Source: Candidatus Wirthbacteria bacterium
GTDB lineage: Bacteria; Patescibacteriota; CG2-30-54-11
Assembly (NCBI GenBank): GCA_903889905.1
Contig: CAISZI010000010.1
Location: 1,464 to 65,463, forward strand
Reading direction: 5' to 3'
Length of the DNA: 64,000 bases
Shown here: piece after piece, positions 12,664 through 49,966 of the stretch
Position numbering within the stretch: the first letter of the stretch is position 1
Layout: the number at the start of each line of letters is the position of its first letter
Notes under the pieces: model-generated
Databases searched by the model: none
Seen by the model: only the letters and a program-made list of their open reading frames with translations
What the model was told of the DNA's origin: nothing
Position numbers and translations under genes: made by a program

Positions 12664-12673
12664 GGGGCGTTCT

Positions 12674-13930
12674 ATGTTATCAAATCAAACAATAGGGAAC
12701 ACCTCATTTGAAGATGTTGGCGAATTGGGATTTCAATTGAAAGAGCGTCAATTATATGAAAAAGATTTATCAGGTGATCCTATAAAGACAGTTAGTGTTG
12801 TCGAAGTCGTTGACGAACTGAAAGAGGGGGACTTTTTAGATGCAATGGAGTGTTATCGACGAGGGATGCTTCGAGTAAATAGTAAATCTATTCAGATAAA
12901 ACAAGAAGTAGAGGAAAGAACAATTGAGATGATTTTTAAAGGCGAAGGACCTTTTGGATTAACCATTAAAAAAGTTATTTTTAGGGATCAATCACGTAGA
13001 ATTTCCAGCATCGCATTAATAGCAGAAGATATTCGTTCTGCTAGAGCCATTGATAGTTGGATAAGTCCTGAATATTCAACATCAAAATACCCAACATTTA
13101 ATCACTTATTCTTATTAGGATGCTTTGATCAGCAAGATTCCCTGTCTTTAGATTCTACTGCAACCTCTCAGTTTGATATCGCCCTTGAAACCATTTCAGC
13201 TGGAGTTCCAAGTAAGTTGTTCTTCGATTATTCAATTAGGATTGGATTGCCTCAATTTGGGGTGCTTGGGCACTGGATGGAAAATAAGCAAACATTAGAG
13301 GAAGGCCAGCAAAGATACTATTTCGGTAAATATAATCCATCTGAGATTACCAAGGAGGCTCTCGAAGCAAAATATTCCATTAATGATTCAACTCAAAGGT
13401 GGATTGTTGACAACAAACAGGAATTGGTTCGGTATTGTGGAATTCCTCATCCTTTAGCCGTTGTCCTCTATGAAATGTATATAAAGGCTTTCACGGGAAG
13501 TAACCAAAGGTCTTCACATAATTTTGAGACGACGGAGGGTGATTTCTTTTCACTTTTAGAGGGGAATTCCGGATTTACGTGGGTGGTCCAAGATAAGGAT
13601 ACTGCGACCCCTTCATCATTTCTCCATTCTACAACTCCAGAAAAAGTATCTTGGTTAAATCCCGAAAAAAAATGGGACAAAGAAACAAAACCCTCTCTTT
13701 ATATAAGAACAACTGTTAGCACTTCCGCAGTAGCACCATCAGTCTTTTTGACGATCTTTAAAACCCAAATACCTGATGGAGGTATTATTGCCTGTGATAT
13801 GGGCGAAAGAATTTCTGCTCCAAGGCAGACACAGGTTTTGTCTCGCCAATTCGGACTCCCGAGAGGTTCTGTAGAGATTTATGATGCCGAACAGTATTGT
13901 TCTATTGGAATACCCGTCGCCAAAGCATAA
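12674..13930 (+). CDS. Hypothetical protein (418 aa), AT-rich, unknown function
   Basis: ORF with AAGGGG RBS 6 nt upstream of the ATG at 12674. Overlaps the methyltransferase stop. No recognisable domain. Confidence 0.5.
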   Translation: MLSNQTIGNTSFEDVGELGFQLKERQLYEKDLSGDPIKTVSVVEVVDELKEGDFLDAMECYRRGMLRVNSKSIQIKQEVEERTIEMIFKGEGPFGLTIKKVIFRDQSRRISSIALIAEDIRSARAIDSWISPEYSTSKYPTFNHLFLLGCFDQQDSLSLDSTATSQFDIALETISAGVPSKLFFDYSIRIGLPQFGVLGHWMENKQTLEEGQQRYYFGKYNPSEITKEALEAKYSINDSTQRWIVDNKQELVRYCGIPHPLAVVLYEMYIKAFTGSNQRSSHNFETTEGDFFSLLEGNSGFTWVVQDKDTATPSSFLHSTTPEKVSWLNPEKKWDKETKPSLYIRTTVSTSAVAPSVFLTIFKTQIPDGGIIACDMGERISAPRQTQVLSRQFGLPRGSVEIYDAEQYCSIGIPVAKA

Positions 13931-13977
13931 AATAAATAGTATAATTAAAAGATTCTAATAATAATTAATAAAAAAAA

Positions 13978-16746
13978 ATGTTGCTTTTTGCTACATATAT
14001 TCCCATCTGGATCATGTTTTTTGGATTGGGTGGACTTGTTTTGTCTAGAGGGTTACGAAAACCTGCCAATATAACTTTTTTCCTTTTTTGTGTATCTATC
14101 TCCTTCTGGATTTTTTCACTTTTCTTGTCCGATTATTTACATGATCCTGTAAGCGTGCTTGTATGGACAAGGCTTACCTGGGTTGGGCCAATATTAGCAA
14201 GTACATTTTTTTCTGTTTTTTCATCCTGTTTTCCTAACCACACATTATCAATTCGCAAAATCTCAAAATTTTTCATTCCACCTATTTTTTTACTGATATT
14301 TACAGATACGAAGTGGAATATAGAGACTGTTTCAATAAGAGAATGGGGATCCGACTTGACGGTTGGGAAGCTTTACCCGGTATTATTCGTTTTTTTAATT
14401 GTTTATTTAATTGGAGCCCTTTTTAATTTTATTAAAGCATATAAAAGTTCGAGGACAGTCGAAAAATCCCAGATAAAATTAATTGTTATGGGCGCCTTTT
14501 TAAGTGCACTAATTGCGTTTGTTACAAATATATTGTCGAATTATTTAAATACAACAAGATGGAGCGTCTTTGGTCCATTAGCGTTTACTTTTTTTGTTGT
14601 CGCCGTTTCAATTGCAATTGTTAAGCACCGATTCCTTGATGTTCACATAATAATTCGACGAAGTCTTATTTATTTGTCTCTTGCATCAACCGTAATTATT
14701 GGTTACGCAGGCGCAGTCCTTCTTTTTCAAGGGGTTGTCTCGGGCGGAGAATTGCATCTAAGTGTCATCCAAATCTCCGGAATTGTCTTCGTCGCCCTCA
14801 CCGCCCCTTTGCTCCAGAAATGGTTTGAACGCTTGACTGACCGCTTCTTTTTCCGCAGCGCTTACAACACTCAGCACACCATTTTGGATCTGGCCAAGAA
14901 GATGAATTCGGTCAAAAGCCTGGACGAGCTGGATCAGCAGATCTTGGGGACGCTGACGGAGACGATGAAGATCAAGGGCGCGGCGATTTACCGGGAAAGC
15001 CATGAGAATGGAACCCTTTACAAACAAGTATCTGAGAAACAATTTGGCGCCACGGAGTTGTCACTCAAAAAGAACCTGACGCGACTACGTGCTTATTTCG
15101 CGACTCAGGCTGAAGTGTTGGTCACCGAAGAGGTGCTCCGCGACCGGCGGGACGATTTGGGGCATCGGGGCAATTTGATGCTAGCGTTGTGTGAGGACTT
15201 CTTTGGGCATGGCGTTGAGGTTGTAGTGCCGCTCATGGCCAAGGAACATTTGCTGGGGATGATCTTCTTGATGGGCAAGAAGTCAGGGGATGCTTACAGC
15301 GGACAGGATTTGCAGCTTCTGGAAATTCTGGCCAACAGCGCATCCGTGGCCATGGACAATGCCATGTTTTATGAGGAACTGGAACAACGTGTTCAGACCC
15401 GCACGACCGAAGTGAATGAAAAGAACCGTTACTTGATGACACTACAGCGAGTAACGACGCAGATTTTGCAGGGTGTTGACTTCAAGGAAGTCACACAGAA
15501 AATCGTCGATGCCATCCATGATGAAATGGGCCATGTGGGCGCATTCATCTTTAGCTACAAAGCGTCGACTGGCGAAACGCAGCTCACGGCTGTTTCCAAT
15601 GCCCGTCGGGTACAGGAGGCGCTTTCATTGATGGGGACGAAGGCGTTTGAGATCAAAGGCAATGTCCATGACAACAAGTTGATGCAACGGGTATTTGAGA
15701 CCAAAGAAGTTGCGATTGTGGACAAGTTGAGAGAGGTGCTGCAGCCGGCAATCTCAGGCGAGGTGGCTGACCAGATGCAACATCTGGCGCGGATCAAGGC
15801 GCTGGCGGTGGTACCGATTGTGGTGGAAGGCAAGGCGATTGGTGCGCTGACCTTTTTGATTGACCGGTACAAGGACCACATCACTACCGCCGAGCAGGAG
15901 ATCATGCATGCGCTGGCGCACCTGGTCGCGATTGTGATCCGCAACTCCCGCTATTATGATCAGGTCGAGAAAAGCAACAAACAGCTGGCGCGTGCCAATA
16001 CCCGCATCAATGACCAGGTGATCCAGCTCGAGGAAGCCAACAAACATCTGCAGCGGCTGGATAAGGCCAAGACTGAATTCCTTTCGATTGCTTCACATCA
16101 ACTGCGCACACCGCTCAGTGCCATTCGGGGTTACTTGTCGCTGCTCGAGGAAGGCGACTTTGGGGAAATGGCGGTGCAGCAGAAGACCGTGATCAAAAAA
16201 ATGCAGGACAACGTCAAACGTCTGGTTAATCTGGTCAATGATTTGCTCAGCCTGGCGCGGATCGAAGCCGGAACCGGCCCCAAAGGGCTGAATGCCGAAG
16301 AGATAGATTTCCGTATTGTGGTGGATCAGAGCGTGGACGAAGTGGCTTTGAAAGCGCAGAGCAAAGGATTATATTTACACTGGGAGCGCCCGGCGGACGA
16401 GGTTCGGATCAAGGTAGACAAGGAAAAAATCGACCAGGTGGTCATGAACCTGATCGACAATGCGGTTTACTATACACTTGAGGGCGGCGTGACGATCACC
16501 CTGACCGAAGAAAAGAAGAAGATTCGTTTTGTGGTGCAGGATACAGGCATTGGCATCAGCAAGGACAACATCCACGAGATGTTCGCCAAGTTCTACCGCG
16601 CCCAGGATGCGATGAAAGTTCGCCCCGACGGCACCGGCATTGGCCTCTACGTCGCCAAGATTATGGTGGAGTCGCATAACGGTAAGATCTGGGTGGAGAG
16701 CGAGGCAGGGAAGGGATCGAAGTTTATTGTGGAATTGCCGAAGTAG
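13978..16746 (+). CDS. Sensor histidine kinase: N-terminal polytopic (~8 TM) sensor domain, GAF domains, HisKA, HATPase_c
   Basis: TM-rich first ~230 aa (AT-rich DNA). H-box LSIASHQLRTPLSAIRGY, N-box NLIDNAVYYT, G-boxes QDTGIGI and GTGIGLYVAK. The C-terminal ~450 aa are paralogous to the next two HKs. Confidence 0.8.
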   Translation: MLLFATYIPIWIMFFGLGGLVLSRGLRKPANITFFLFCVSISFWIFSLFLSDYLHDPVSVLVWTRLTWVGPILASTFFSVFSSCFPNHTLSIRKISKFFIPPIFLLIFTDTKWNIETVSIREWGSDLTVGKLYPVLFVFLIVYLIGALFNFIKAYKSSRTVEKSQIKLIVMGAFLSALIAFVTNILSNYLNTTRWSVFGPLAFTFFVVAVSIAIVKHRFLDVHIIIRRSLIYLSLASTVIIGYAGAVLLFQGVVSGGELHLSVIQISGIVFVALTAPLLQKWFERLTDRFFFRSAYNTQHTILDLAKKMNSVKSLDELDQQILGTLTETMKIKGAAIYRESHENGTLYKQVSEKQFGATELSLKKNLTRLRAYFATQAEVLVTEEVLRDRRDDLGHRGNLMLALCEDFFGHGVEVVVPLMAKEHLLGMIFLMGKKSGDAYSGQDLQLLEILANSASVAMDNAMFYEELEQRVQTRTTEVNEKNRYLMTLQRVTTQILQGVDFKEVTQKIVDAIHDEMGHVGAFIFSYKASTGETQLTAVSNARRVQEALSLMGTKAFEIKGNVHDNKLMQRVFETKEVAIVDKLREVLQPAISGEVADQMQHLARIKALAVVPIVVEGKAIGALTFLIDRYKDHITTAEQEIMHALAHLVAIVIRNSRYYDQVEKSNKQLARANTRINDQVIQLEEANKHLQRLDKAKTEFLSIASHQLRTPLSAIRGYLSLLEEGDFGEMAVQQKTVIKKMQDNVKRLVNLVNDLLSLARIEAGTGPKGLNAEEIDFRIVVDQSVDEVALKAQSKGLYLHWERPADEVRIKVDKEKIDQVVMNLIDNAVYYTLEGGVTITLTEEKKKIRFVVQDTGIGISKDNIHEMFAKFYRAQDAMKVRPDGTGIGLYVAKIMVESHNGKIWVESEAGKGSKFIVELPK

Positions 16747-16774
16747 GGGAGTATCCAATTATAGGGAGAGTCTT

Positions 16775-17785
16775 ATGACTCCAACGCCGATTAATGTCGA
16801 GGAAAGGTTATTTTTTTATACAGACAAATTTGAAACTAAAACGACAATTCCGTTAGGTAAGTTTGTAAAAGAATTTAACGAAGTCAGGACTGCCATGTTC
16901 GGAGGATTAGATAAGCGGCAGAGTTTTTTATGGTATTGGGTGTTGATGTCACTGACAACAACAGCGCTTTGTGAGAAAGGGAAGAAAAATTCCTATAGCG
17001 AGTATGTAAATGAAGTAAAGCTGTTGGGTGTGATTTTTGATGTCTTATTGGATGATATTGCTGACCAATATGGCGACACAAAAACGGCAGCTATTTTATT
17101 GAAAGAAATCGAAAAAGCATGTTATCAAAAACCATATAATTTAAAAATGGTGACCGTTGCAGAACGAGAGTATGCATTATTTTGCGTAAAGGTCTGGGAG
17201 ACAATCTTTAAATATTTACAGCAGCTTCCAAGCTACCGTTTTTATAATGAAATGATGATGCGGAAGTATAAAAAATTGTTTGAAGTGATGACCTATTCAC
17301 TGGAAATACGTGTTGATCCTGAATCGGTAGATTATAAAAAATACCACCGCCTCCTTTCCCATAATATGCACATGATCATTAATGGTTTAATGGATTTAAT
17401 GTCCATGAAAACAAAATATGAAGGGATAGGACTAAAAAAGATTGTCCAGATTCTGTTGCTGGGGCAAAAAATGGGCAGGATCGGCAATGCGGTAACTACT
17501 TATGAGAGAGAATTGTTTGTGAAAGATTTCAGTAGTGATGTAATTGCATTTGCACTTAAAAAAGGCGTTTTAACGAAAAAAGATTTTAACGACGTGGAGA
17601 TGTTGACCGACAAAATCAAAGCAAAGCAGGAATATTTGGAAGGATTTTTTTGGAGCAAATGGTTGAGACTCAGGAATCAGTTAATCAAGCATGAAAACGA
17701 CTTCGATCATCTGGATATAAAAGGATACCGTCAAGGATTGGAGACATTAAAACAATTCCATTTGGCCAGTAGGGGAAACAAGTAG
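16775..17785 (+). CDS. All-alpha protein (336 aa) with class I terpene synthase-like motif layout (DDxxD, Arg sensor, NSE-like triad)
   Basis: ATG at 16775 with GGGAGAG RBS. DDIAD at aa 93-97, R192, and N238-x3-T242-x3-E246 (NAVTTYERE). The 141-aa spacing DDxxD-to-NSE and the 46-aa Arg-to-NSE spacing match bacterial sesquiterpene synthases. Confidence 0.4.
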   Translation: MTPTPINVEERLFFYTDKFETKTTIPLGKFVKEFNEVRTAMFGGLDKRQSFLWYWVLMSLTTTALCEKGKKNSYSEYVNEVKLLGVIFDVLLDDIADQYGDTKTAAILLKEIEKACYQKPYNLKMVTVAEREYALFCVKVWETIFKYLQQLPSYRFYNEMMMRKYKKLFEVMTYSLEIRVDPESVDYKKYHRLLSHNMHMIINGLMDLMSMKTKYEGIGLKKIVQILLLGQKMGRIGNAVTTYERELFVKDFSSDVIAFALKKGVLTKKDFNDVEMLTDKIKAKQEYLEGFFWSKWLRLRNQLIKHENDFDHLDIKGYRQGLETLKQFHLASRGNK

Positions 17786-17791
17786 TAAGAC

Positions 17792-20362
17792 ATGAATATA
17801 ATACAAAAAACAATAACAAAAATATTATTTCCGAAACTGGACGTTGACCGACTCAAAGGAAAACAGTCAGCGGATATCCCGACTACCAAAGAATTAAGAT
17901 ACCGAACGCTGCAAATAACGTTCAGCTTGTTAGCTTCGAGCATTGACTTTGATCAGATGGCGCAGGTGGTTGCTAATGCTATGGATGAACAGATGGATTA
18001 TTTCGGGGGTGTTTTTTTTATTGCAGACGATGAACATAAGCGATTAATACCTTGGGTCTACACCAGTTCACCAATAGTTGATCAAACGGTTAAATGGCTT
18101 AAAAAACCCTTCCGGGAACATGAGTATCTTTATACAGCGACTGAATCGGCGGCGGTAAAAGCCTTTCTTGAAAAGAAAATTTATGAATCCAATGATCTTA
18201 GTGAATTCTTAAGACCAGCAGTTGATGTTAGTTATGCCAAAAAAGTTATCAGGTTTGTTGGTATTAAATCGACAATAGCCTTGCCGATCTTGTTACGTGG
18301 AAAAGCGCTGGGAGTGGTTTTAATTAATTCGAGTAGAGAGAAAGCATCGGATGAAGAAATTGAGATGCTGAAGACTTTTACTGAACAGATCGCAATTGCG
18401 ATTCAGAATTCGAAACTTTTCCAACAAACCCAAAACCAAGTCAAACTCCTCGAATCCCAAAACCGCAACCTTTCCCTCCTCCAAAAAACCGAACAATTGG
18501 TTACCCATGGTTTAAATACTGACGTCAAAGAGTTGGTGCAAAAAATTCTGGATGATATTGTGGCAGCACTGCGGCCAGGTCTTGGACTGGCGTGGGTGGT
18601 GCAGGGGGATGAAAAGACGAAGGAAACACATATCGCAGCTCTTTCAAATAGTGCGGAAACCGTGGCGTTGGTGGAAAAACTTAAATTTGATCCGCTCGCG
18701 TTGGCATCGACTATGCCTCAAGACCATGCCCGTAAGGCCGGGCGCGCCAAAAAGGACAAAGTGTTTGTCTATGACGAATTTGAGCAGTTTTTGACACCGT
18801 TTGTGGGCGACAAGCCAGGACGGAAGCTGATCAAGGAGTTGGGACTGAAAAGCATGGCAGCGCTTCCTCTGGTTGCCGAAAACCAGAAACTGGGGATGCT
18901 GATGTTTGGGTTGCAACGTACGACGGCGGAAGTTACGGAGCAGGACAGACAGATGCTGGAAAGTTTTGCCAATATTGTCTCGATTGCTTTTGCCAATGCC
19001 GGCAATTTTAAACAGATCCAGGAAAAAAACCTTTACTTGTCGACGCTGCAGCGTGCCACGCAACAGATCATTCAGGGCGGCGTCAATTTCAAAGATGTGA
19101 CCCAGAAAATCGTCGATTCCATCCACGACGAAATGGGTTACCTCGGGGCCTTTATCCTGAGTTATGAGGAAGTGACCAATGAAGTGCGGCTGGCCGGGCA
19201 TTCGCGCGTTGCCATTATTGATGAACTGATGCAGAAGTTCCATCTGGATCCAGGCGTATTGCGCGGCACGGCCGACGATAGCGAATTAGGCGCGCGAGTC
19301 ATTTTAAAAAAAGAAATCGTGATTACCGACAAATTAAGCGACATCCTCGAACCGACAGTGCCGGACATGGTTTCGGATGTCTTTCAGAAGACGATTGGCA
19401 TCAAAAGCCTGGTGTCGTTCCCGATCATGACCGAAGACAAGGTGTATGGCATGCTGACGGTCGCACTGGACAAGCCCAAGGAACAGATTGGCATGAACGA
19501 GCTCGAAATGATGAAAGCGCTGACGCAAATGGACGCGATTGTGCTGCGGAACGGCCAGTTTTACAGCGAGATGCAGGAATCCAACAAAAAACTCCAGAAT
19601 GCCTACACCATGATCAACCAGCAACTCAATCAGCTGGAGGAAGCCAATAAACACCTGCAACAGCTGGACAAGGCCAAAACCGAATTCCTGTCGATTGCCT
19701 CGCATCAGCTCCGGACTCCACTCAGCGCTATCCGGGGATACCTCTCGATGCTGGATGATGGGGATTTTGGTGCGCTCTCGGTGAAGCAAAAAGAAGTTAT
19801 GAAGAAAACCCAGGATAACGTGGTGCGGCTGGCGTCGTTGGTCAAGGACCTGCTTAGCCTGGCGCGCATCGAAGCCGGCACCGGGCCCAAGGGATTGACG
19901 CTGGAATCGGTGGATATGCGCATCATGATTGACGATGTGGTGGATGAGGTGCTGCTCAAAGCCGCGGCCAAAGGACTGAACCTGGTCTGGCACCGCCCAG
20001 AGGAGGCTGTGATGCTGGAAATGGACAAGGAAAAGATTGAACAGGTGGTGACCAACATGATCGACAATGCCGTGTATTATACGCTTTCGGGCACGATTGA
20101 GGTGCATTTGCAGGACAAAGGCGCGCGTGTCATGTTTTGGGTCAAAGACAGCGGTATTGGGATTGAAAAGGAACACATCAACGATCTGTTTACCAAGTTT
20201 TATCGTAACGCCAATGCCATGAAAGTTCGCCCCGACGGCACTGGCATTGGGCTGTATGTGGCCAAAATCATGGTGGAAGCGCACCATGGGCGAATCTTTG
20301 TCGAAAGCGAAATCAATCAGGGCACAACTTTTTATGTGGAATTACCAAAACAACAAAAATGA
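17792..20362 (+). CDS. Cytoplasmic sensor histidine kinase (multiple GAF domains, HisKA, HATPase_c), paralogue 2
   Basis: No TM segments. LSIASHQLRTPLSAIRGY, MIDNAVYYT, KDSGIGI, GTGIGLYVAK. Shares the block LQRATQQIIQGGVNFKDVTQKIVDSIHDEMGYLGAFILSYEE with HK1 and HK3. Confidence 0.8.
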   Translation: MNIIQKTITKILFPKLDVDRLKGKQSADIPTTKELRYRTLQITFSLLASSIDFDQMAQVVANAMDEQMDYFGGVFFIADDEHKRLIPWVYTSSPIVDQTVKWLKKPFREHEYLYTATESAAVKAFLEKKIYESNDLSEFLRPAVDVSYAKKVIRFVGIKSTIALPILLRGKALGVVLINSSREKASDEEIEMLKTFTEQIAIAIQNSKLFQQTQNQVKLLESQNRNLSLLQKTEQLVTHGLNTDVKELVQKILDDIVAALRPGLGLAWVVQGDEKTKETHIAALSNSAETVALVEKLKFDPLALASTMPQDHARKAGRAKKDKVFVYDEFEQFLTPFVGDKPGRKLIKELGLKSMAALPLVAENQKLGMLMFGLQRTTAEVTEQDRQMLESFANIVSIAFANAGNFKQIQEKNLYLSTLQRATQQIIQGGVNFKDVTQKIVDSIHDEMGYLGAFILSYEEVTNEVRLAGHSRVAIIDELMQKFHLDPGVLRGTADDSELGARVILKKEIVITDKLSDILEPTVPDMVSDVFQKTIGIKSLVSFPIMTEDKVYGMLTVALDKPKEQIGMNELEMMKALTQMDAIVLRNGQFYSEMQESNKKLQNAYTMINQQLNQLEEANKHLQQLDKAKTEFLSIASHQLRTPLSAIRGYLSMLDDGDFGALSVKQKEVMKKTQDNVVRLASLVKDLLSLARIEAGTGPKGLTLESVDMRIMIDDVVDEVLLKAAAKGLNLVWHRPEEAVMLEMDKEKIEQVVTNMIDNAVYYTLSGTIEVHLQDKGARVMFWVKDSGIGIEKEHINDLFTKFYRNANAMKVRPDGTGIGLYVAKIMVEAHHGRIFVESEINQGTTFYVELPKQQK

Positions 20363-22386
20363 ACGACACCTCACTTCCTCATGAGCAGCCAGACGAGAGC
20401 GTTTCTGAAACAACTATCGCCAAAACCGAATGGATCATCAAAAGTCCGCATCCGCGTTCGCACCGGTCGCATTCACTGCATCAGCAATTGGAGGAGCAGG
20501 CAGCACTACTCAAAAAACAAACACAATACTTTGGGCTGTTGCAGCAGGTTGAAGCCATGCTCACCGGCAGCAATGCTGGCGAGCTGAAAGTCGTGGTGAA
20601 CGACATGCTGGACGCGATGGTCAAAGTTCTGGCGCCCGACGTAGGCCTTGCCATGGTCGTCAGAAACAATGCCGAGAGTGTTGATGCCCAGGTGTTCGCG
20701 GTTGCGAACGCCAAAGCCACGGGCGCACTGTCCTCAACGCTCAAGGCCAAACCATTTGCCTACCGTGGTAAGCTGGATTTTTTGGACGCCAAGGAAATTT
20801 TTGGCCAGCAAAAGCATATTTATGCCAATGCTGAGGTCATTGAGGGCTTTTTGGACCTGTTTGGGCCTGGCGAAGCGTCGAAACTCAACCAGCAACTGGC
20901 GTTGCAAAGCGTGGCTGTGATGCCTTTGGCGTCTGCCAAAGAACAGTTTGGATTGTTGGTGTTTGGACTTGCCAGTGATCCCAATGAGTATAATGCACCC
21001 TGGTCTAAATTGTTGTCGGCGTTGGCGTCGGCAGTGAGCGTCGCCTTTGCCAATGCCGAAAACAACCAGAAACTCAGGGAAGAGGACTTGAACCTGATGA
21101 TCCTGCAAAATGCCACCAACCAGATTGTCCAGGGTGGAGTGAACTTTGACGAAATGAGCCAGAAAATTGTCGATGTGATTTATGAAGATCTGGGGTATTT
21201 GGGTGCGTTCATCCTGAGCAACGAACCGAATGGCGACATGCGACTCGCGGGACATTCTCGCATTCCGATCATTGATAAAATCATCAAGGAATTCAGTATT
21301 AATACGACAACGTTGAAAGGCACGGTGGATGACAGCGAATTCAGTATGCGCATTATCTGGGGCAAGGAAACGATTGTCACCGACAAGCTGAGTGACGTCA
21401 TTTCGCCTTCGGTGCCGATCATGATGGCGGATGTCATGCAAAAAATGGTGGGCATGAAAAGCCTGGTGTCGATGCCGATCATGGCGGAAGAGCAAGTGTT
21501 CGGAATGCTGACCGTGGGGCTCAACAAACCAAGGGAAATGATTTCAACCAGCGAACTCGAGATGATGAAAACCATGACACACATGTATGCGATTGTGCTG
21601 AGAAACGGCCAGTATTATGAGACGATCGAACAGAACAACAAATACTTGACGCAGCTGGATAAAGCCAAAACAGAGTTTCTGTCGATTGCTTCACATCAAC
21701 TGCGCACACCGCTTACGGCGATTGATGGCTACATGACTCTGCTGGGGGTCGGTGGCTATGGCGAGATGCCTGATCAGCAAAAGGAAGTGATTGGCAAAAC
21801 CAAGGAAAACATCCGTCGGCTGGTGACACTGGTCAATGATTTGCTTGGCTTGGCAAGAATTGAAACCGGCAGTAGTCTCAAAGGCGTGCTGGCGGCTGAA
21901 ATTGACCTGCGGGTGATCATTGACCGGGTTGTGGACGAGGTGAGCATGAAAGCCCAGAAAAAGAATGTGTCACTAGAGTGGGAACGCCCGGCCGGGGAAG
22001 TGAAAGCCTTTGTCGACCAAAGCAAAATGGAACAGGTTTTCGTCAATATCATCGACAATGCCGTGGATTACACCAAACAGGGTAAAGTGGTTGTGCAGCT
22101 GGAAAACAAGCCCCAGCGTATCCTGCTCAAGGTCAGAGACACCGGGATTGGCATTGACAAAGAAAGCCTGCAGCAGTTGTTTACCAAATTCCATCGTAGC
22201 CCCAACGCCCGCATCGTGCGACCCGATGGCACCGGTATCGGTCTGTTTATTGCCAAAATTTACGTCGAAGCCCACCAGGGCAAAATCCACGTTGAATCCA
22301 AAGTTGGCAAGGGAACCACGTTTACGGTGGAACTGCCGAAGAAGGAAAAGGAAGAGGGAACAGTGGAGGAGAAGGCGGGAAAATAG
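20359..22386 (+). CDS. Cytoplasmic sensor histidine kinase (GAF domains, HisKA, HATPase_c), paralogue 3
   Basis: Overlaps the HK2 stop (ATGA). LSIASHQLRTPLTAIDGY, IIDNAVDYT, RDTGIGI, GTGIGLFIAK. Confidence 0.8.
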   Translation: MNDTSLPHEQPDESVSETTIAKTEWIIKSPHPRSHRSHSLHQQLEEQAALLKKQTQYFGLLQQVEAMLTGSNAGELKVVVNDMLDAMVKVLAPDVGLAMVVRNNAESVDAQVFAVANAKATGALSSTLKAKPFAYRGKLDFLDAKEIFGQQKHIYANAEVIEGFLDLFGPGEASKLNQQLALQSVAVMPLASAKEQFGLLVFGLASDPNEYNAPWSKLLSALASAVSVAFANAENNQKLREEDLNLMILQNATNQIVQGGVNFDEMSQKIVDVIYEDLGYLGAFILSNEPNGDMRLAGHSRIPIIDKIIKEFSINTTTLKGTVDDSEFSMRIIWGKETIVTDKLSDVISPSVPIMMADVMQKMVGMKSLVSMPIMAEEQVFGMLTVGLNKPREMISTSELEMMKTMTHMYAIVLRNGQYYETIEQNNKYLTQLDKAKTEFLSIASHQLRTPLTAIDGYMTLLGVGGYGEMPDQQKEVIGKTKENIRRLVTLVNDLLGLARIETGSSLKGVLAAEIDLRVIIDRVVDEVSMKAQKKNVSLEWERPAGEVKAFVDQSKMEQVFVNIIDNAVDYTKQGKVVVQLENKPQRILLKVRDTGIGIDKESLQQLFTKFHRSPNARIVRPDGTGIGLFIAKIYVEAHQGKIHVESKVGKGTTFTVELPKKEKEEGTVEEKAGK

Positions 22387-22485
22387 TTAAGAGGTCTAAA
22401 GTTTATCAAGTTGATAATCCTCATTCGCCAAGGCGCTTCCAACTTCGCATGGCTTCGGTGGACAGGAGTTTATTAAGCGATGGAA

Positions 22486-22516
22486 AGGGACGGAACAGTG
22501 TTCTGTCCCTTTTTAG
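22486..22516 (+). terminator. Rho-independent terminator after the histidine-kinase array
   Basis: AGGGACGGAAC-agtg-TTCTGTCCCT followed by TTTTT. Confidence 0.5.
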
Positions 22517-25401: not shown

Positions 25402-25412
25402 ATGGAGACAAG

Positions 25413-26286: not shown

Positions 26287-27498
26287 TTACTGTGCCGTGA
26301 TCTTATGCGCATCGGCTAATTGATGCTGCGCTTGCGCGGCGATGATGGAGAGTTCTCCTGCCAGCACGGCGGCGGCGATGATTTCGGCGAGTTTGCGGGA
26401 GTTGGAGCCAGACGGGTTGCCACTGCCGGCACATCCCAGCATTTGCAAGGCTTCCTGCTGCGTTCCTAGCCGGGTGCCGCCACCTATGGTGGCGACATTC
26501 AGACTGGGGATGGTGACGGAGGCGTGCAGCGAGCCGTCGTCGTTTGCTTCCATTAGGGCAAAACCTTGGGAGGCGTCGACGACATGGGCGGGATCCTGGC
26601 CGGTGGCGATAAAGGCGGCGGCAACGGTGTTGGCAAAATGGGCGTTAAAACCGGTGCTTCCGGCATACGCAGAACCCACCAGATTTTTGCGGTAGGCGAT
26701 TTCGGCCATGCCGGCGGCGGTGGATTTGAGCACTTTGGTGATGATTTCTTTGGGAATTGTGCATTCGACATGGACGGTTTTGCCACGGCCCTGGGTGAGG
26801 TTGAGGGCGGCCGGTTTTTTGTCGGTACACATGTTGCTGGAGACGGACAGGAATTCGACTGCGGGAAGGGCGGCTGCAATCGTTTTGCCAATCTTGTCAC
26901 TGGCGCGGGTGACCATATTCATACCCATGGCGTCCCCGGTGCTGAAGGCAAAGCGCAGGAATACGTTGCGGCCGGCAATCCAGGGTTCAAAGGAAAGCAG
27001 GTCGGAATGACTGCTCACTTCGTGGGTAAGGGTTTTGAGCTGGTCAAAATGGTCTTTGACCCACTGCAGCAGTTCCTTGGCCACCTCGAGCGAGGGAACT
27101 TTGAACAAAGGCGCGCGTGTCATGGCGTCTTTCTGGATCCAGACCGAGGCGCCACCACTTAAGGTAATCGTTTTGCAACCGCGGGAGATGCTGGCGATCA
27201 GCGATTTCTCGGTGGTCGCGAGCGGCACATAGAATTGGCCCTTGGCGTGGTCACCGTTTACTTGGAGAGGTTCGGTCACGCCCAAGGGGAGCTGGGTGGC
27301 ACCAATAATATTTTCGGCATTGTATTTGACGGCAGTTGCGGCATCAAATGAAAATTGAGCCGTGTGTTTAAAATCCGCCTTGGTGGCGGCGGTGAGCAGG
27401 TCGCGGCGGGTTTGAAAAGCTTCAGGGATGGATGAGGCGTGTTTTTCTAGATCACGCACTTTGATTTGTCCAGCGCGTAATTGATCAAGCAATGCCAT
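26287..27498 (-). CDS. hmgA: 3-hydroxy-3-methylglutaryl-CoA reductase, class I (archaeal/eukaryotic-type catalytic domain)
   Basis: ENIIGATQLPLGV (class I ENVIG motif), ~400 aa, Gly-rich NAD(P)H-binding segments. Confidence 0.8.
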   Translation of the reverse strand: MALLDQLRAGQIKVRDLEKHASSIPEAFQTRRDLLTAATKADFKHTAQFSFDAATAVKYNAENIIGATQLPLGVTEPLQVNGDHAKGQFYVPLATTEKSLIASISRGCKTITLSGGASVWIQKDAMTRAPLFKVPSLEVAKELLQWVKDHFDQLKTLTHEVSSHSDLLSFEPWIAGRNVFLRFAFSTGDAMGMNMVTRASDKIGKTIAAALPAVEFLSVSSNMCTDKKPAALNLTQGRGKTVHVECTIPKEIITKVLKSTAAGMAEIAYRKNLVGSAYAGSTGFNAHFANTVAAAFIATGQDPAHVVDASQGFALMEANDDGSLHASVTIPSLNVATIGGGTRLGTQQEALQMLGCAGSGNPSGSNSRKLAEIIAAAVLAGELSIIAAQAQHQLADAHKITAQ

Positions 27499-27641: not shown

Positions 27642-28445
27642 TTAATGATGACGGATGGAGGTGCCGATAAAAGCATTGCCCAAAAGTGCGTTTTTTAAAT
27701 TGCCCGGGATTGTGCCGTCAATAATGGCGACTTCGATGCCGTTGCTGGCCATTTGCAGGCTCATGCCGACTTTGTGCAGAATACCACCAGTCACGTCGGG
27801 GACGCCGTTTGGGACCAGGGCGGATTGGATGGAAGCGACAGTCTGGGGAGTGATGAGAGGAATGGTTTGGCCGCTCCCATCATAGACGCCGGCAGTGCTG
27901 CCGACCTGGATGATTTTGAGTTCGGGAAAGCCGTTGGCCAAAAAAGTCGGGATCAGGTTGTCGAGTGAGGTTTCACCGGAAAAAATGCAGCAACCGAGGG
28001 TTTTGTCCAGGATGACGTCGCCAAAGATGACCGGGATGATGTTGTGTTTAAGCGCTTCCAGGATGGGTGCGGCAAACTGGGAGTGCAGTTGTTTGTTGTT
28101 GGCAAAAGTGTAAGACGAAGGCATGAAGCTCATGACATTGAGGCCGCAGTCGAGCAGGGTGCGGTTCACGATGCGGTTGAGGGTAATCGCGTCCTGCTGC
28201 ACCAGACAAAGGCCGCGGATGCTGTCATGGTCTCTTAGGCCGTTTGCGGTGCCGTATCGGGAAGCTGAGGTATGGGCAAAAGAACCGGCGCCGTGGGTAA
28301 TGACGATGCGCGGGTCATCAACCTGGGCCTGTTTGATCTCCTGGCCAAGTCGACAAATATTGTCCTCACGCGCCGTGTAAGGTGTGTTTTTGTCCGTGAT
28401 GATACTGCCGCCGAGTTTGATCAGGGTAAGTGTTGCCATGGGCAT
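27642..28445 (-). CDS. ipk: Isopentenyl phosphate kinase (amino-acid kinase family)
   Basis: LIKLGGSIITDK...ITHGAGSFAH; 267 aa. Adjacent to mevalonate-pathway genes. Confidence 0.7.
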   Translation of the reverse strand: MPMATLTLIKLGGSIITDKNTPYTAREDNICRLGQEIKQAQVDDPRIVITHGAGSFAHTSASRYGTANGLRDHDSIRGLCLVQQDAITLNRIVNRTLLDCGLNVMSFMPSSYTFANNKQLHSQFAAPILEALKHNIIPVIFGDVILDKTLGCCIFSGETSLDNLIPTFLANGFPELKIIQVGSTAGVYDGSGQTIPLITPQTVASIQSALVPNGVPDVTGGILHKVGMSLQMASNGIEVAIIDGTIPGNLKNALLGNAFIGTSIRHH

Positions 28446-32602: not shown

Positions 32603-33646
32603 TTAAAACAAATGCTGGTCCGAGCCCTGTACACCCGGCCCCGGGTGGTTCTGGATGGTGAAGCGAACAAACGGATTGGCCTTGAGTCTTTTTTCGACTT
32701 CGGCAGCATCCTTGGCTTCGCTTACGCAGTGCACATTGGCGCCGGCATCCAGAGAAAAATACACTTGCAAACCATCCTTTTGCCGCCAGCGCATGACATC
32801 TTTGATCACGGCAATCGAACCCGGCGCCCAGTAAAAAAGCGGTGGCACCGACGTCATCATCACGGTATGCATGGAAGTGGATTCGCGTTCGATCAGCAGC
32901 CCCAGTGTTTTGATGTCGCGGGAGAGAATGGCGGCGCGTACGGTCTTGATGCGGGGCTGCATTTCCTTGAGCCGAGTTTCGAAATAAGGGCTGGTGTCGG
33001 CAAGCAGATGTCCGGCCGAAGAGGAGGCGAGTTTTGTGCCAGAGTCGACGACGGCGACGGTATCAACCAGATCCCAATGGTGTTCATCGGCAATTTGTGT
33101 GGCGATGGAAGAGTTGTGGTCATGGCCCGCAATTTGTTCGACAAAGCCGCCCAAAACCGAGCGCACGCCCGAAACCGATCCGGCCAGTCGCGTCAGGCGT
33201 GAGAGTTCGGTTTTGTCTGTCCAAATGGTGTCAAGAGCATAAGCTTTGACCAGGGCGGCGGTAAGCGCGGCAGAACCCGAAGCCGAAGACGCGATGCCGG
33301 CATCGGCCGGGAAATTGTTGACGGTGCGGAAATGGATTTTGTCCTTGGAGTTGGCCAGCATGCGGATGCGGTTGACCTGGTCGAGGATATTTTTGCCTTT
33401 GATCGTGGTGGTGTCGAGCTTGGCGAATGCTTCCTGGCCCCAGAATTTGATCTCGATCACGTCTTCGGCAAAGGTCGGGGACGCTTCAATCGTGGTCGTA
33501 GTCTGGCATTCATCCAGACACATGGAAATGCTGTTGTTGCGCGGGATGAACTGGGCGTGGTCGGCTTGGCCCCAGTATTTGATAAAGGCAAGGTTGGCGG
33601 AAGCGGTGACGGTGGCTTTCATGGGAGGCCTCTTAGTTGAAACCAA
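32603..33646 (-). CDS. mvaD: Diphosphomevalonate decarboxylase family (MVD; may act as phosphomevalonate decarboxylase given ipk)
   Basis: ASANLAFIKYWGQ (MVD N-terminal motif); GHMP fold; 347 aa. Confidence 0.75.
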   Translation of the reverse strand: MVSTKRPPMKATVTASANLAFIKYWGQADHAQFIPRNNSISMCLDECQTTTTIEASPTFAEDVIEIKFWGQEAFAKLDTTTIKGKNILDQVNRIRMLANSKDKIHFRTVNNFPADAGIASSASGSAALTAALVKAYALDTIWTDKTELSRLTRLAGSVSGVRSVLGGFVEQIAGHDHNSSIATQIADEHHWDLVDTVAVVDSGTKLASSSAGHLLADTSPYFETRLKEMQPRIKTVRAAILSRDIKTLGLLIERESTSMHTVMMTSVPPLFYWAPGSIAVIKDVMRWRQKDGLQVYFSLDAGANVHCVSEAKDAAEVEKRLKANPFVRFTIQNHPGPGVQGSDQHLF

Positions 33647-33678
33647 ACACGGTTAAGTTAATAAAACAACAGAGTGTT

Positions 33679-34809
33679 TTAATACCAGATCGAAGCGCCT
33701 TTACTGGAGATGAACACATCCAGCGGGTAGAGTCCGGCTTCTTCCCATTCCCATTCGATGTCTTCTTTGACAAAGGGGTCAAAACAAATGGCAATGCCAC
33801 AATTGAGTTTGGTACCGCCAGCGATTTTGGCGGCGCCATTGTGTTTGCGGGCAATATCGGTGAGCGCTTTCACTTTGGGGATGTCAATGGCAAAGCCCGC
33901 GAGTTCCGCCAATTTTGTCAAAGCAATCTGGTTGGCTTCAACGAGTTGTAGCATGTAGGTCTGATGTTCTTCGAGCAGAGCTTGCTGGATTTTTTCTGTG
34001 GTGGCAAAAATCATCGCGCTGAGTTGGGCATAAATGTCTGGCTGCGCGGTTTTGAAGGCCGCAATTTTGGCCTGCGCATCAACCGTCTGTAGCTCGTTCC
34101 CAAACCAGGCGGCGGTAATCTGAAACGTGGAGGGGAATTTGATCTTTTCGATTTTAAGCAGCGGCCAGGTTTCGGCCAGAATTGTTTTGAGGGGAGAATG
34201 TGCTTCGATTTTGGCTTTGAGCCAGGCGCGGTCAAAGGGAGTGTAACGAAGGAGGCCACCAAAGGTGCTGGCTGCGGTTTCGTAACCCGTGATGGTGTGA
34301 TTGGTGTACATGGCGTATGTGAGGGTAGCCAGTTTAAAAATGGTGTCGAGCGTTTTGTCGTCCGCGAGGTCATAGCCAGAAAATTTCAAAAACGCTGCCA
34401 TGATGGAAACGATCACCGCGGCGGGTGTCTCGTGGCCGATCTTGCCAATGGCGCCATCGGTCAGGGTGAGGGTGTGTTCGATGGTGTCCGTGAGCATGCT
34501 GAAATTCGGTGCAGGTTTGCTGTCTTCGGCCAGGAACTGCAGTGCGGTTTCCACCGCCAGTTTGACCACAGCGCCATCCCGGGTTCGTTCCTCAGGCAAA
34601 TCCAGCCAGTTGAAATGACCGTCTTTGTATTCCGCATGGATGTTGTTCAGTTTGAGGTCGGGCATATTGATGACAATGGCATCCGTGGCCTCAAATTCGC
34701 AGTAGGTGTAGCGATCAAAGCCAGCGACCAGCATGGAACGATCCGGATCAAGTAATGTCCACTCACCCGAAATGACCAAAGGACCAGGAACCTGGATGGT
34801 TAGTTTCAT
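33679..34809 (-). CDS. Divergent GHMP-kinase-family protein (candidate phosphomevalonate kinase or non-canonical paralogue)
   Basis: N-terminal VPGPLVISGEWTLLD resembles the PMK/MVK motif 1 (APGK..L.GE). Motif 2 is degenerate (GKIGHETPAAVIVSIMAAF in place of GxGLGSSAA). Located between mvk and mvaD. Confidence 0.35.
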   Translation of the reverse strand: MKLTIQVPGPLVISGEWTLLDPDRSMLVAGFDRYTYCEFEATDAIVINMPDLKLNNIHAEYKDGHFNWLDLPEERTRDGAVVKLAVETALQFLAEDSKPAPNFSMLTDTIEHTLTLTDGAIGKIGHETPAAVIVSIMAAFLKFSGYDLADDKTLDTIFKLATLTYAMYTNHTITGYETAASTFGGLLRYTPFDRAWLKAKIEAHSPLKTILAETWPLLKIEKIKFPSTFQITAAWFGNELQTVDAQAKIAAFKTAQPDIYAQLSAMIFATTEKIQQALLEEHQTYMLQLVEANQIALTKLAELAGFAIDIPKVKALTDIARKHNGAAKIAGGTKLNCGIAICFDPFVKEDIEWEWEEAGLYPLDVFISSKGASIWY

Positions 34810-34845
34810 AAGAAAATTTCAATTTTGATAATGAAGTCAGTCTAA

Positions 34846-49942: not shown

Positions 49943-49966
49943 AATTTCTTGTTAAAGGGTTACGCC

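What the first reader, a model, noticed from the sequence alone, without database searches (positions are those of the whole stretch)
16775..17785. Terpene-synthase-like protein inserted between the histidine kinases
The 336-aa all-alpha protein carries DDIAD (aa 93-97), a candidate NSE/DTE triad N238-T242-E246 exactly 141 residues downstream, and R192 46 residues before the triad. This spacing reproduces the DDxxD...R...(N/D)Dxx(S/T)xxxE geometry of bacterial class I sesquiterpene/monoterpene cyclases (~330 aa). No terpene synthase would be expected from a small-genome uncultivated lineage. It sits 9 kb from a complete IPP-producing mevalonate operon and 3 kb from an unusual SAM methyltransferase. 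If genuine, it indicates volatile or specialised terpenoid production. The protein may be mis-annotated in databases because the ORF-track start (16640) overlaps the kinase.
Basis: inference. Interest (0 to 1): 0.65.

Follow-up and report, generated by a model that had tools for sequence, protein, structure and literature searches.

The report
Terpene synthase paired with sensor kinase
The gene encodes a real but very divergent terpene-synthase-type protein, and its relatives in many uncultivated bacteria and archaea are either encoded next to a sensor kinase or fused to signalling domains or isoprenoid-precursor enzymes, which points to signal-linked terpenoid chemistry.

Summary
ORF 16775-17785 (+) encodes 336 aa with DDIAD (93-97) and N238/T242/E246. 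It has no Pfam, NCBIfam or PDB sequence hit, yet it belongs to a large family of 482 clusters at 50% identity. In that family the Asp-rich motif and the N/T/E triad are 97-99% conserved (third Asp: D 88%, E 11%). R192 is not conserved.

An AlphaFold model (pLDDT 93) matches only class I terpene synthases and prenyl synthases. A preprint's archaeal beta-bisabolol synthase has the same motif pattern.

The gene is not an insertion. It forms a conserved pair with the kinase immediately downstream (HK2). Eleven of 13 related loci have a co-oriented histidine kinase directly after the gene, and HK2's sensor region is colinear with those kinases from residue 1.

Relatives sit beside polyprenyl synthase, HMG-CoA reductase or geranylgeranyl reductase genes. 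Other family members are fused to DXS, PilZ, cNMP-binding or receiver domains.

Best reading: a Mg-dependent prenyl-diphosphate-ionising enzyme fed by the nearby mevalonate genes and functionally coupled to kinase signalling. The direction of that coupling is unknown.

Several side claims fail: the database start is already 16775, the methyltransferase link has no support, and the mevalonate operon is not shown to be complete.

The parts
13917..13945 (+). sigma-70-like promoter match (TCGCCA-17-TATAAT) just upstream of HK1; possible operon start
   Evidence: This is a consensus match only, and the number of matches in the region is no higher than in shuffled sequence.
13978..16746 (+). HK1: 7TM region, two GAF domains, HisKA and HATPase_c histidine kinase; a paralogue of HK2
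   Evidence: Pfam, about 8 hydrophobic segments, 53% identity to HK2 over the C-terminal 507 aa.
16764..16768 (+). Shine-Dalgarno-like GGGAG, 6 nt before the ATG
   Evidence: sequence read
16775..17785 (+). Terpene-synthase-like protein, 336 aa (P0001), class I alpha fold
17051..17065 (+). codons for D93-D-I-A-D97, the Asp-rich metal-binding motif at the end of helix 75-98
   Evidence: The family profile aligns this motif to VVDDTYD of AtTPS18.
17486..17512 (+). codons for N238-AVT-T242-YER-E246, the NSE/DTE-type triad at the end of helix 217-248. The family signature is N-x-x-x-T-W-x-R-E.
   Evidence: The family profile aligns this motif to NDVGTYETE of AtTPS18.
17792..20362 (+). HK2: soluble kinase with GAF domains, HisKA and HATPase_c, starting 6 nt after the TS-like stop codon. 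It is the conserved partner gene.
   Evidence: Pfam. Residues 1-430 are colinear from residue 1 with the kinases directly downstream of the closest TS-like homologues, at 30-37% identity (loci).
20359..22386 (+). HK3: GAF, HisKA and HATPase_c kinase; overlaps the HK2 stop by 4 nt; paralogue of HK2 (47% identity)
22481..22515 (+). terminator-like hairpin with a 16-pair stem followed by a T-run; probable end of the HK1/TS/HK2/HK3 unit
26287..27498 (-). HMG-CoA reductase (precursor supply)
   Evidence: Pfam PF00368, E 9e-122
27642..28445 (-). isopentenyl phosphate kinase
   Evidence: NCBIfam NF040647, 176 bits, above the 120-bit cutoff
32603..35772 (-). diphosphomevalonate decarboxylase (32603-33646), phosphomevalonate-kinase-like gene (33679-34809) and mevalonate kinase (34846-35772)
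   Evidence: The PMK-like hit scores 147 bits, below its 166-bit cutoff.

Best explanation
The 336-aa protein is a genuine member of a deep, poorly annotated clade of class I (ionisation-dependent) terpene-synthase-fold proteins.

Shown here:
- The alpha-helical terpenoid-synthase fold.
- An intact, family-wide conserved DDxx(D/E) motif on one helix and an N/T/E triad on another. These are the two elements that hold the Mg2+ cluster and diphosphate in known terpene synthases.
- A break in the helix preceding the triad (residues 198-199, at the conserved H-N-M).
- A conserved pairing with the histidine kinase encoded immediately downstream.

Inferred mechanism:
- The protein binds a short-chain prenyl diphosphate, most likely FPP or GGPP, built from IPP supplied by the mevalonate genes 8.5 kb away.
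- It ionises that substrate and releases a sesqui- or diterpene. The product may be an alcohol, because D89 sits one turn before D93, like the Asp proposed to activate water in an archaeal beta-bisabolol synthase with the same motif pattern.

Inferred coupling to signalling:
- In this clade and in the CPR clade the gene sits directly upstream of a GAF or 7TM histidine kinase.
- In other clades the same domain is the C-terminal part of proteins whose N-terminus is a PilZ, cNMP-binding or receiver domain.
- The most economical reading is a synthase/sensor pair in which the kinase senses the product, or a kinase that gates the synthase. The direction is not resolved.
For: Fold:
- AF2 model has pLDDT 93.1 and pTM 0.92.
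- The Foldseek PDB top 50 are all terpene synthases or prenyl synthases, with TM 0.5-0.62 and probability 1.00.
- The family profile hits AtTPS18 (E 0.002), and both motifs align to the canonical ones.
- 27 of 52 relatives give weak PF19086 hits, best 2.3e-7.

Conservation: motif residues are 97-99% conserved (third Asp D 88% / E 11%) over 158 sequences.

Activity in a probable relative:
- bioRxiv 10.1101/2024.01.29.577750 shows that archaeal A0A5E4I9B1 makes beta-bisabolol from FPP. It has R24, D63, 67-DDXXD and 221-NTLNTWPRE.
- This family has R48, D89, 93-DDIAD and N-x-x-x-T-W-x-R-E. A Thermoplasmata member reads NMLNTYPRE with D56, D60 and R16.
- Haloarchaeal family members are in that paper's TPS list.

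Isoprenoid linkage:
- Fusions to DXS (about 34 of 84 long representatives), HMG-CoA reductase, geranylgeranyl reductase and DHBP synthase.
- Polyprenyl synthase next to the gene in L022, L023, L025, L026, L031, L032 and L033.
- HMGR/NUDIX/GHMP kinase genes next to it in L028 and L030.

Signalling linkage:
- A co-oriented kinase directly downstream in the window and in L019, L022, L023, L025, L026, L031, L032, L033, L034 and L036.
- HK2's sensor region is orthologous to those kinases.
- Fusions to PilZ (about 21), cNMP-binding (4) and receiver (3) domains.
Against: - No activity has been measured for this protein or any close relative.
- The sequence of A0A5E4I9B1 could not be retrieved, so its membership rests on motif pattern only.
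- The protein fails Pfam and NCBIfam thresholds.
- Structural matches are moderate (TM 0.5-0.62, E about 1e-3).
- The canonical diphosphate-sensor Arg and the C-terminal RY pair are not family features.
- No polyprenyl synthase lies in this 64-kb window.
- Strong conservation of many other residues across archaea and bacteria (W53, W55, Y174, W296, HNM) is unusual for product-diversifying secondary-metabolite synthases. It would equally fit a conserved binding or sensing role.
- No response regulator is present in the window, so the kinase output is unknown.
Confidence: 0.55

Rival explanations
1. The domain is a non-catalytic, or only weakly catalytic, prenyl-diphosphate sensor. It would bind IPP, DMAPP, FPP or GGPP through the Mg/diphosphate site and report isoprenoid status. 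The readout would go to the adjacent kinase (transcriptional feedback) or directly to a fused DXS or HMG-CoA reductase (allosteric feedback).
For: - The association is with the flux-controlling enzymes of both precursor pathways (DXS, HMGR) rather than with tailoring enzymes.
- Pairing with kinases is conserved.
- Many non-motif residues are unusually conserved across domains of life.
- No response regulator is nearby.
Against: - In the PilZ, cNMP-binding and receiver fusions the domain sits C-terminal, where output or effector modules usually lie. Two sensor domains with no output would be odd.
- Dedicated polyprenyl synthase and geranylgeranyl reductase neighbours look like a biosynthetic pathway.
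- A probable family member is catalytically active.
Confidence: 0.2
2. It is an ordinary stand-alone terpene synthase making a specialised or volatile metabolite. The flanking kinases would be merely co-transcribed or neighbouring genes with no direct functional link.
For: Fold and motifs. Histidine kinases are common genes in some of the phyla concerned, and several non-adjacent kinase hits within 8 kb could be chance.
Against: - A co-oriented kinase sits at position +1, with a gap or overlap of about 0-30 nt, in 11 of 13 loci with enough flank. These loci fall in two separate clades whose TS-like proteins are only 25-38% identical, and they include small CPR genomes.
- The sensor region of the kinase is conserved along with the gene.
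- Independent fusions to three kinds of signalling receiver domains exist.
Confidence: 0.15
3. It is a ComQ-like prenyl-transferring enzyme. It would ionise a prenyl diphosphate but transfer the prenyl group to an acceptor (peptide, protein or small molecule) that the neighbouring kinase then senses, as in ComQ/ComX/ComP of Bacillus.
For: System-level resemblance: an isoprenoid-synthase-fold enzyme next to a multi-TM or sensor kinase, with a polyprenyl synthase nearby. The ComQXPA comparison rests on my own knowledge and was not tested.
Against: - No small ComX-like ORF fits between the TS-like gene and the kinases; the gaps are 28 and 6 nt.
- The second motif is of the NSE/DTE type typical of synthases or cyclases, not a second Asp-rich motif.
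- The best structural matches are cyclases.
Confidence: 0.07
4. It is not a functional gene, and the motifs are chance matches in a helical protein.
For: No Pfam, NCBIfam or PDB sequence hit for the protein itself. The gene's G+C (36%) differs from its neighbours.
Against: - 482 representative homologues exist, 297 of them below E 1e-10.
- Motif residues are near-invariant.
- The model is high-confidence.
- Synteny is conserved.
Confidence: 0.01

Closest known systems
Canonical bacterial class I terpene synthases (Pfam PF19086 Terpene_syn_C_2; for example epi-isozizaene, pentalenene and selinadiene synthases)
   Same: - Single alpha-domain of about 330 aa.
- DDxxD at the end of one helix and an N-x-x-x-(S/T)-x-x-(K/R)-E triad at the end of another, about 141-145 residues later.
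- A broken helix before the triad.
- Best structural matches.
   Different: - Below Pfam threshold.
- The second triad position is not Asp. The triad reads N-x-x-x-T-W/Y-x-R-E.
- The Arg 46 residues upstream and the RY pair are not conserved.
- Family-specific invariants are present instead: R48, FLWxW (residues 51-55), K82, HNM, D207, Q231, GRIGN, D251, W296 and a C-terminal SRGxK.
- Genomic partners are kinases, second-messenger receivers and precursor enzymes rather than P450s or tailoring genes.
Archaeal terpene synthase A0A5E4I9B1 (beta-bisabolol synthase) and the predicted archaeal TPSs of bioRxiv 10.1101/2024.01.29.577750
   Same: - Single alpha-domain with no Pfam hit at default thresholds.
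- An N-terminal Arg about 44-46 residues before the second Asp.
- An extra Asp one turn before DDxxD.
- Triad NTLNTWPRE, against the family's N-x-x-x-T-W-x-R-E and NMLNTYPRE in a Thermoplasmata member.
- Haloarchaeal family members are listed among that paper's TPS sequences.
   Different: - The sequence of A0A5E4I9B1 was not available, so homology was not scored.
- Its DDxxD-to-triad spacing is 154 residues, against 141-145 here.
- The preprint does not discuss kinase pairing or DXS, PilZ or receiver fusions: a search of its text for 'DXS' and 'fusion' gave no occurrences.
trans-Isoprenyl diphosphate synthases (Pfam PF00348, FPP/GGPP synthases)
   Same: Same superfold and a first Asp-rich motif. 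They appear lower in the structural hit list.
   Different: - No second Asp-rich motif; an N/T/E triad is present instead.
- No PF00348 hit.
- True PF00348 genes lie next to the family's genes as separate proteins.
ComQ/ComX/ComP/ComA quorum sensing of Bacillus (own knowledge, not tested)
   Same: An isoprenoid-synthase-fold enzyme encoded directly upstream of a sensor histidine kinase that detects the isoprenoid-bearing product.
   Different: - No ComX-like peptide gene and no response regulator here.
- The enzyme is of the terpene-synthase type, not the prenyl-synthase type.
- HK2 is soluble with GAF domains.
2-Methylisoborneol and geosmin synthase operons flanked by cyclic-nucleotide-binding protein genes in cyanobacteria and actinomycetes (own knowledge)
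   Same: A terpene synthase genetically associated with cNMP-binding signalling proteins.
   Different: There the association is by neighbouring genes and involves canonical synthases. Here the cNMP-binding, PilZ or receiver domain is fused to the synthase-like domain, or a histidine kinase is the conserved neighbour.

Membership tests
Class I terpene synthase (alpha-domain, ionisation-dependent) | Alpha-helical class I terpenoid-synthase fold | tested here: met
   AF2 model pLDDT 93.1 and pTM 0.92 with 15 helices. All top 50 PDB Foldseek hits are terpene or prenyl synthases, with TM 0.5-0.62.
Class I terpene synthase (alpha-domain, ionisation-dependent) | Asp-rich DDxx(D/E) motif at the C-terminal end of a helix (helix D) | tested here: met
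   D93-D-I-A-D97 lies at the end of helix 75-98. Conservation is 97%, 99% and 88% D + 11% E. It aligns to the DDTYD of AtTPS18.
Class I terpene synthase (alpha-domain, ionisation-dependent) | NSE/DTE triad (N/D)Dxx(S/T)xxxE on helix H | tested here: met
   N238, T242 and E246 lie at the end of helix 217-248 and are 99%, 97% and 99% conserved. R245 matches the usual K/R before the Glu. The second position is A/L/W, not D. The motif aligns to NDVGTYETE of AtTPS18.
Class I terpene synthase (alpha-domain, ionisation-dependent) | Diphosphate-sensor Arg about 46 residues upstream of the triad (bacterial enzymes) | tested here: not met
   R192 is present in this protein at that spacing, but the column is Leu in 44% of the family and is not conserved. 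Other invariant basic residues (R48, K82, R235, R245) may substitute; this is inference.
Class I terpene synthase (alpha-domain, ionisation-dependent) | Break in helix G (effector site) before the triad | tested here: met
   DSSP on the model shows helices 187-197 and 200-209 separated at residues 198-199, inside the conserved H196-N197-M198. This is from a predicted structure only.
Class I terpene synthase (alpha-domain, ionisation-dependent) | C-terminal RY pair (bacterial and fungal enzymes) | tested here: inconclusive
   No RY pair. A conserved C-terminal S-R-G-x-K (R333 68%, G334 96%, K336 100% where present) lies about 95 residues after N238. Its role is unknown.
Class I terpene synthase (alpha-domain, ionisation-dependent) | Match to Pfam PF19086 or PF03936 at the gathering threshold | tested here: not met
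   The query gives no hit even at E 10. Of 52 relatives, 27 give sub-threshold or weak PF19086 hits and 6 give PF03936 hits.
Class I terpene synthase (alpha-domain, ionisation-dependent) | Mg2+-dependent conversion of a prenyl diphosphate to a terpene | not testable with these tools
   Only indirect evidence: an archaeal enzyme with the same motif pattern makes beta-bisabolol from FPP.
Clade of archaeal TPS A0A5E4I9B1 (EnzymeExplorer preprint) | Sequence homology to A0A5E4I9B1 | tested here: inconclusive
   The accession is absent from the held supplements. The motif pattern matches, and haloarchaeal sequences from the paper's file 3 align to P0001 at 27% identity, E 6e-32.
trans-Isoprenyl diphosphate synthase (PF00348) | Two Asp-rich motifs (FARM and SARM) and a PF00348 match | tested here: not met
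   There is a single DDxxD and no PF00348 hit. Genuine PF00348 proteins are separate neighbours in related loci.

The most novel reading that the evidence does not exclude
The TS-like gene and the kinase after it form a terpenoid synthase/receptor signalling pair. The kinase would sense the product through GAF domains (this clade) or a 7TM region (CPR), making it a quorum- or partner-sensing system built on a terpene. It would be present in uncultivated bacteria, including small-genome CPR lineages. The PilZ-, cNMP- and receiver-fused relatives would be second-messenger- or phosphorylation-gated terpene synthases.
Probability: 0.25. Interest if true: 0.85.

Novelty: new variant of a known kind. 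Interest (0 to 1): 0.68.

Why it matters
Terpene synthases in bacteria are usually viewed as secondary-metabolite enzymes of large-genome actinomycetes, myxobacteria and cyanobacteria. Here a separate clade is mostly annotated as hypothetical protein, or as DXS when fused.

- It spans CPR bacteria, Planctomycetota, Verrucomicrobiota, Myxococcota, Chloroflexota and archaea.
- It is wired to signal transduction through conserved kinase partners and PilZ, cNMP-binding or receiver fusions.
- It is also wired to the flux-controlling enzymes of both isoprenoid pathways.

If the domain is catalytic, these would be the first c-di-GMP-, cNMP- or phosphorylation-gated terpene synthases, and a candidate terpene-based sensing system. 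If it is a sensor, it would be a new feedback device for isoprenoid biosynthesis.

Either way the family gives directly testable candidates: small soluble proteins with cheap substrates.

Tried and rejected
- Direct Pfam, NCBIfam and PDB sequence searches of the protein gave nothing.
- The word-indexed homologue search found only 3 and then 10 proteins. The exhaustive representative search was needed.
- The look-up of encoding contigs has no record for P0001 itself.
- Taxonomy: TsaD best hits are 58-61% identical and unnamed. Named hits at about 51% are mixed (Doudnabacteria, Oceanobacillus and others), so the lineage stays unresolved. Rfam found no RNA gene in the window.
- The sequence of A0A5E4I9B1 is not in the held supplements.
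- Literature searches for terpene synthase with PilZ or c-di-GMP, with DXS fusion, or with a sensor kinase found nothing relevant.
- The 'REC' labels in the tree are invalid, because my seed overlapped the TS-like domain. Only the Pfam-based counts are used.
- The methyltransferase at 11860-12663 was considered as a terpenoid C-methyltransferase and rejected. It gives only generic class I hits far below cutoffs, and no related locus has it.
- The idea that the gene was inserted between duplicated kinases was rejected, because the TS-like/HK2 pair is orthologous to pairs elsewhere.
Full report
**1. Observation**

The ORF at 16775-17785 (+) translates to 336 residues plus a stop. A script confirmed D93-D-I-A-D97, R192 and N238/T242/E246 within NAVTTYERE. 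The ATG is preceded by GGGAG at 16764-16768, and the upstream kinase stops at 16746. The longer TTG-16640 reading overlaps that kinase out of frame. Public databases already hold exactly the 336-aa product, P0001, so the suspected mis-annotation does not exist. The protein itself has no Pfam, NCBIfam or PDB sequence match even at E = 10.

**2. A large family**

An exhaustive HMMER search of 1.84 billion cluster representatives found 482 relatives at E <= 1e-3, 297 of them at E <= 1e-10. I aligned 158 of them to a family HMM.

| Residue | Conservation |
|---|---|
| D93 | 97% |
| D94 | 99% |
| D97 | D 88%, E 11% |
| N238 | 99% |
| T242 | 97% |
| E246 | 99% |
| R245 | 96% |
| R192 | not conserved (Leu 44%) |

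- R245 corresponds to the K/R that precedes the Glu in canonical triads.
- The family has its own invariants: R48, W53, W55, K82, P152, Y174, H196-N197-M198, D207, Q231, R235, D251, W296 and a C-terminal S-R-G-x-K.
- The triad reads N-x-x-x-T-W-x-R-E in nearly all members.

**3. Fold**

AlphaFold2 with a 52-sequence family alignment gave pLDDT 93.1 and pTM 0.92, with fifteen helices. DDIAD sits at the C-terminal end of helix 75-98 and the triad at the end of helix 217-248. There is a helix break at residues 198-199.

Foldseek against the PDB returned only class I terpene synthases and a few prenyl diphosphate synthases among the best 50. They include aristolochene synthase, AtTPS18, tolypothrichol synthase, VenA, epi-isozizaene synthase and T-muurolol synthase (TM 0.5-0.62, E from 7e-4, probability 1.00).

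**4. Link to proven activity**

A preprint (bioRxiv 10.1101/2024.01.29.577750) reports three active archaeal terpene synthases that lack InterPro signatures. One of them, A0A5E4I9B1, makes beta-bisabolol from FPP in yeast and in vitro. It has R24 contacting D68, an unusual D63 one turn before 67-DDXXD, and 221-NTLNTWPRE.

The present family shows the same pattern:
- R48, D89 and 93-DDIAD in this protein.
- The TW-x-RE signature across the family.
- A Thermoplasmata member (L027) reads NMLNTYPRE with D56, D60 and R16.

Haloarchaeal sequences in that paper's supplementary TPS list are clear family members, at 27% identity to P0001 and E 6e-32. The accession's own sequence was not in the held files. 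Membership is therefore inferred, which I rate at about 85% likely.

**5. Isoprenoid context**

In the window:
- HMG-CoA reductase (26287-27498), isopentenyl phosphate kinase, diphosphomevalonate decarboxylase, a PMK-like gene and mevalonate kinase lie on the minus strand from 8.5 kb downstream.
- No HMG-CoA synthase, thiolase, IDI or polyprenyl synthase was found.
- 'Complete operon' is thus not shown.

In relatives the link is much tighter:

| Locus or protein | Isoprenoid neighbour or fusion |
|---|---|
| L031, L032, L033 (closest clade) | polyprenyl synthase, divergent |
| L022, L023, L025, L026 (CPR) | polyprenyl synthase directly upstream |
| L028 | HMG-CoA reductase, divergent |
| L030 | NUDIX-HMGR-GHMP kinase operon, divergent |
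| L037 | geranylgeranyl reductase upstream |
| P0081 | geranylgeranyl reductase, fused |

Among 84 long representatives, about 34 carry an N-terminal DXS or transketolase-like region. P0015 and L012 are full-length; NCBI names P0015's cluster simply as DXS. One representative carries HMG-CoA reductase and one DHBP synthase.

The Tyr at position -5 of the first Asp-rich motif in most neighbouring polyprenyl synthases suggests C15/C20 products. This is a heuristic from established chain-length rules.

**6. Signalling context, the unexpected part**

The gene is flanked by three paralogous kinases:
- HK1 has a 7TM region and two GAF domains.
- HK2 and HK3 are soluble GAF kinases.
- HK2 is 53% identical to HK1 and 47% to HK3.
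- Gaps are 28 nt before the gene and 6 nt after it, and HK2 and HK3 overlap by 4 nt.
- A promoter-like site (13917-13945) and a 16-pair terminator-like hairpin (22481-22515) bracket HK1-TS-HK2-HK3.
- No receiver domain is detectable anywhere in the 64 kb.

This is not a local accident. A co-oriented histidine kinase starts 0-30 nt after the TS-like gene in several groups:
- L031, L032, L033, L034 and L036, which belong to the closest clade (P0006-P0009, P0016).
- All five CPR loci: L019, L022, L023, L025 and L026, from Nealsonbacteria, Saccharibacteria and CPR2.

Together with the window that makes 11 of 13 loci with enough flank. A twelfth locus (L028) has a convergent HATPase gene.

HK2 residues 1-430, its sensor region, align colinearly from residue 1 with the downstream kinases of L031-L034 at 30-37% identity. 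That is about the same divergence as the TS-like proteins themselves, 33-38%. The pair is therefore orthologous, and HK1 and HK3 are local duplicates. The CPR partners are 7TM kinases.

Elsewhere in the family the same domain forms the C-terminus of PilZ fusions (about 21 representatives), cNMP-binding fusions (4) and receiver or receiver-HalX fusions (3). A crude NJ tree puts P0001 with stand-alone proteins in a basal clade, the CPR proteins in another, and the DXS and PilZ fusions in derived clades (its 'REC' labels are invalid).

**7. Mechanism**

Shown: the fold, the two metal/diphosphate-binding motifs, family-wide constraint, isoprenoid-gene linkage and kinase/receiver linkage.

Inferred:
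- The protein binds a prenyl diphosphate with three Mg2+ ions through D93/D97 and N238/T242/E246.
- It ionises the substrate and releases a sesqui- or diterpenoid. D89 may favour water capture, as proposed for the archaeal enzyme.
- The N-terminal position of PilZ, cNMP-binding and receiver domains argues that the TS-like domain is the regulated output.
- For the kinase pairs, either the kinase senses the product (a synthase/receptor pair, comparable at system level to ComQXP or CqsA/CqsS; my own knowledge) or it controls the synthase.

The main rival is a non-catalytic prenyl-diphosphate sensor that feeds back on kinases, DXS or HMGR. It explains the preference for flux-controlling enzymes and the unusually strong conservation of many residues. 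It fits the fusion order and the biosynthetic neighbours less well.

**8. Comparison and novelty**

The protein works like a class I terpene synthase and meets the fold, Asp-rich motif, triad and helix-break criteria. It fails the Pfam threshold. It lacks the conserved sensor Arg and the RY pair as family features. It is not a prenyl diphosphate synthase, because it has no second Asp-rich motif.

I found no paper in the held library describing terpene synthases fused to PilZ or DXS, or paired with histidine kinases. The archaeal preprint covers activity of probable relatives but not this wiring.

I therefore rate it a new variant of a known kind. The lineage of the window remains unresolved, so the 'small-genome lineage' premise is untested. 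The family does occur in CPR genomes.

**9. Open oddities**

- The TS-like gene has 36% G+C (GC3 41%), against 47-51% (GC3 56-63%) for the kinases on either side, although the pair is ancestral.
- Many DXS-like N-termini in the fusions are so divergent that Pfam sees only the transketolase C-domain or nothing.

Noticed in passing
window 16775-17785 versus 13978-16746 and 17792-22386: The TS-like gene has 36.2% G+C (GC3 0.41), while the kinases on both sides have 47.5-50.6% (GC3 0.56-0.63) and the window averages 50.6%. This is odd for a gene whose pairing with HK2 is ancestral.
   Followed up: partly
window 11860-13930 and 22613-26168: Other low-G+C genes flank the kinase unit: a methyltransferase (35.9%), an unknown 425-aa protein (38.7%), an unknown 459-aa protein (44.9%), an M23-like 470-aa protein (39.6%) and an unknown 251-aa protein (40.9%). 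Four of the five have no Pfam or NCBIfam family. This may be a compositionally distinct island.
   Followed up: partly
window 1-64000: There are three paralogous histidine kinases in a row, but no receiver-domain gene was detectable in the whole 64 kb (tblastn with three REC seeds at E <= 1). These are orphan kinases.
   Followed up: partly
L012 6102-8966 (Planctomycetota); P0015/P0159 (Phycisphaerae, named DXS by NCBI): These are full-length DXS proteins (DXP_synthase_N, Transket_pyr and Transketolase_C domains in P0015) with the TS-like domain as a C-terminal extension of about 290 aa. In many other 850-935-aa relatives the N-terminus is so divergent that Pfam detects only the transketolase C-domain or nothing (for example P0022, P0024, P0059).
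   Followed up: partly
L001 10001-11410 (P0002); P0153-P0155; P0156: PilZ plus TS-like fusions (about 21 representatives), cNMP-binding plus TS-like fusions (4) and a haloarchaeal-looking receiver-HalX-TS-like protein (P0156). I found no literature on any of these architectures.
   Followed up: partly
window 28521-32507 (-): A 1328-aa ORF with no Pfam hit sits inside the mevalonate gene cluster, between the isopentenyl phosphate kinase and the decarboxylase.
   Followed up: no
window 27642-28445 and 32603-34809 (-): The cluster encodes both an isopentenyl phosphate kinase (alternative mevalonate route) and a decarboxylase scoring best as diphosphomevalonate decarboxylase plus a PMK-like gene (classical route). 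Which route operates is unclear.
   Followed up: no
P0081; L037 81-2209: Geranylgeranyl reductase is fused to the TS-like domain in P0081 and encoded directly upstream of it in L037. An FAD amine-oxidase-like gene precedes the polyprenyl synthase in the Saccharibacteria locus L022.
   Followed up: no
L021 1838-2932: The Anaerolineae TS-like protein begins with a perfect (NGHS)x7 tandem peptide repeat before the conserved domain.
   Followed up: no
L031 and L033: In two close relatives the polyprenyl synthase / TS-like / kinase module lies next to rpmH-rnpA-yidD (followed by yidC in L031). In L031, dnaA and dnaN lie upstream, so the module sits at the chromosomal origin region.
   Followed up: no
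window 49949-55444 (+): An 1831-aa ORF that was not analysed.
   Followed up: no
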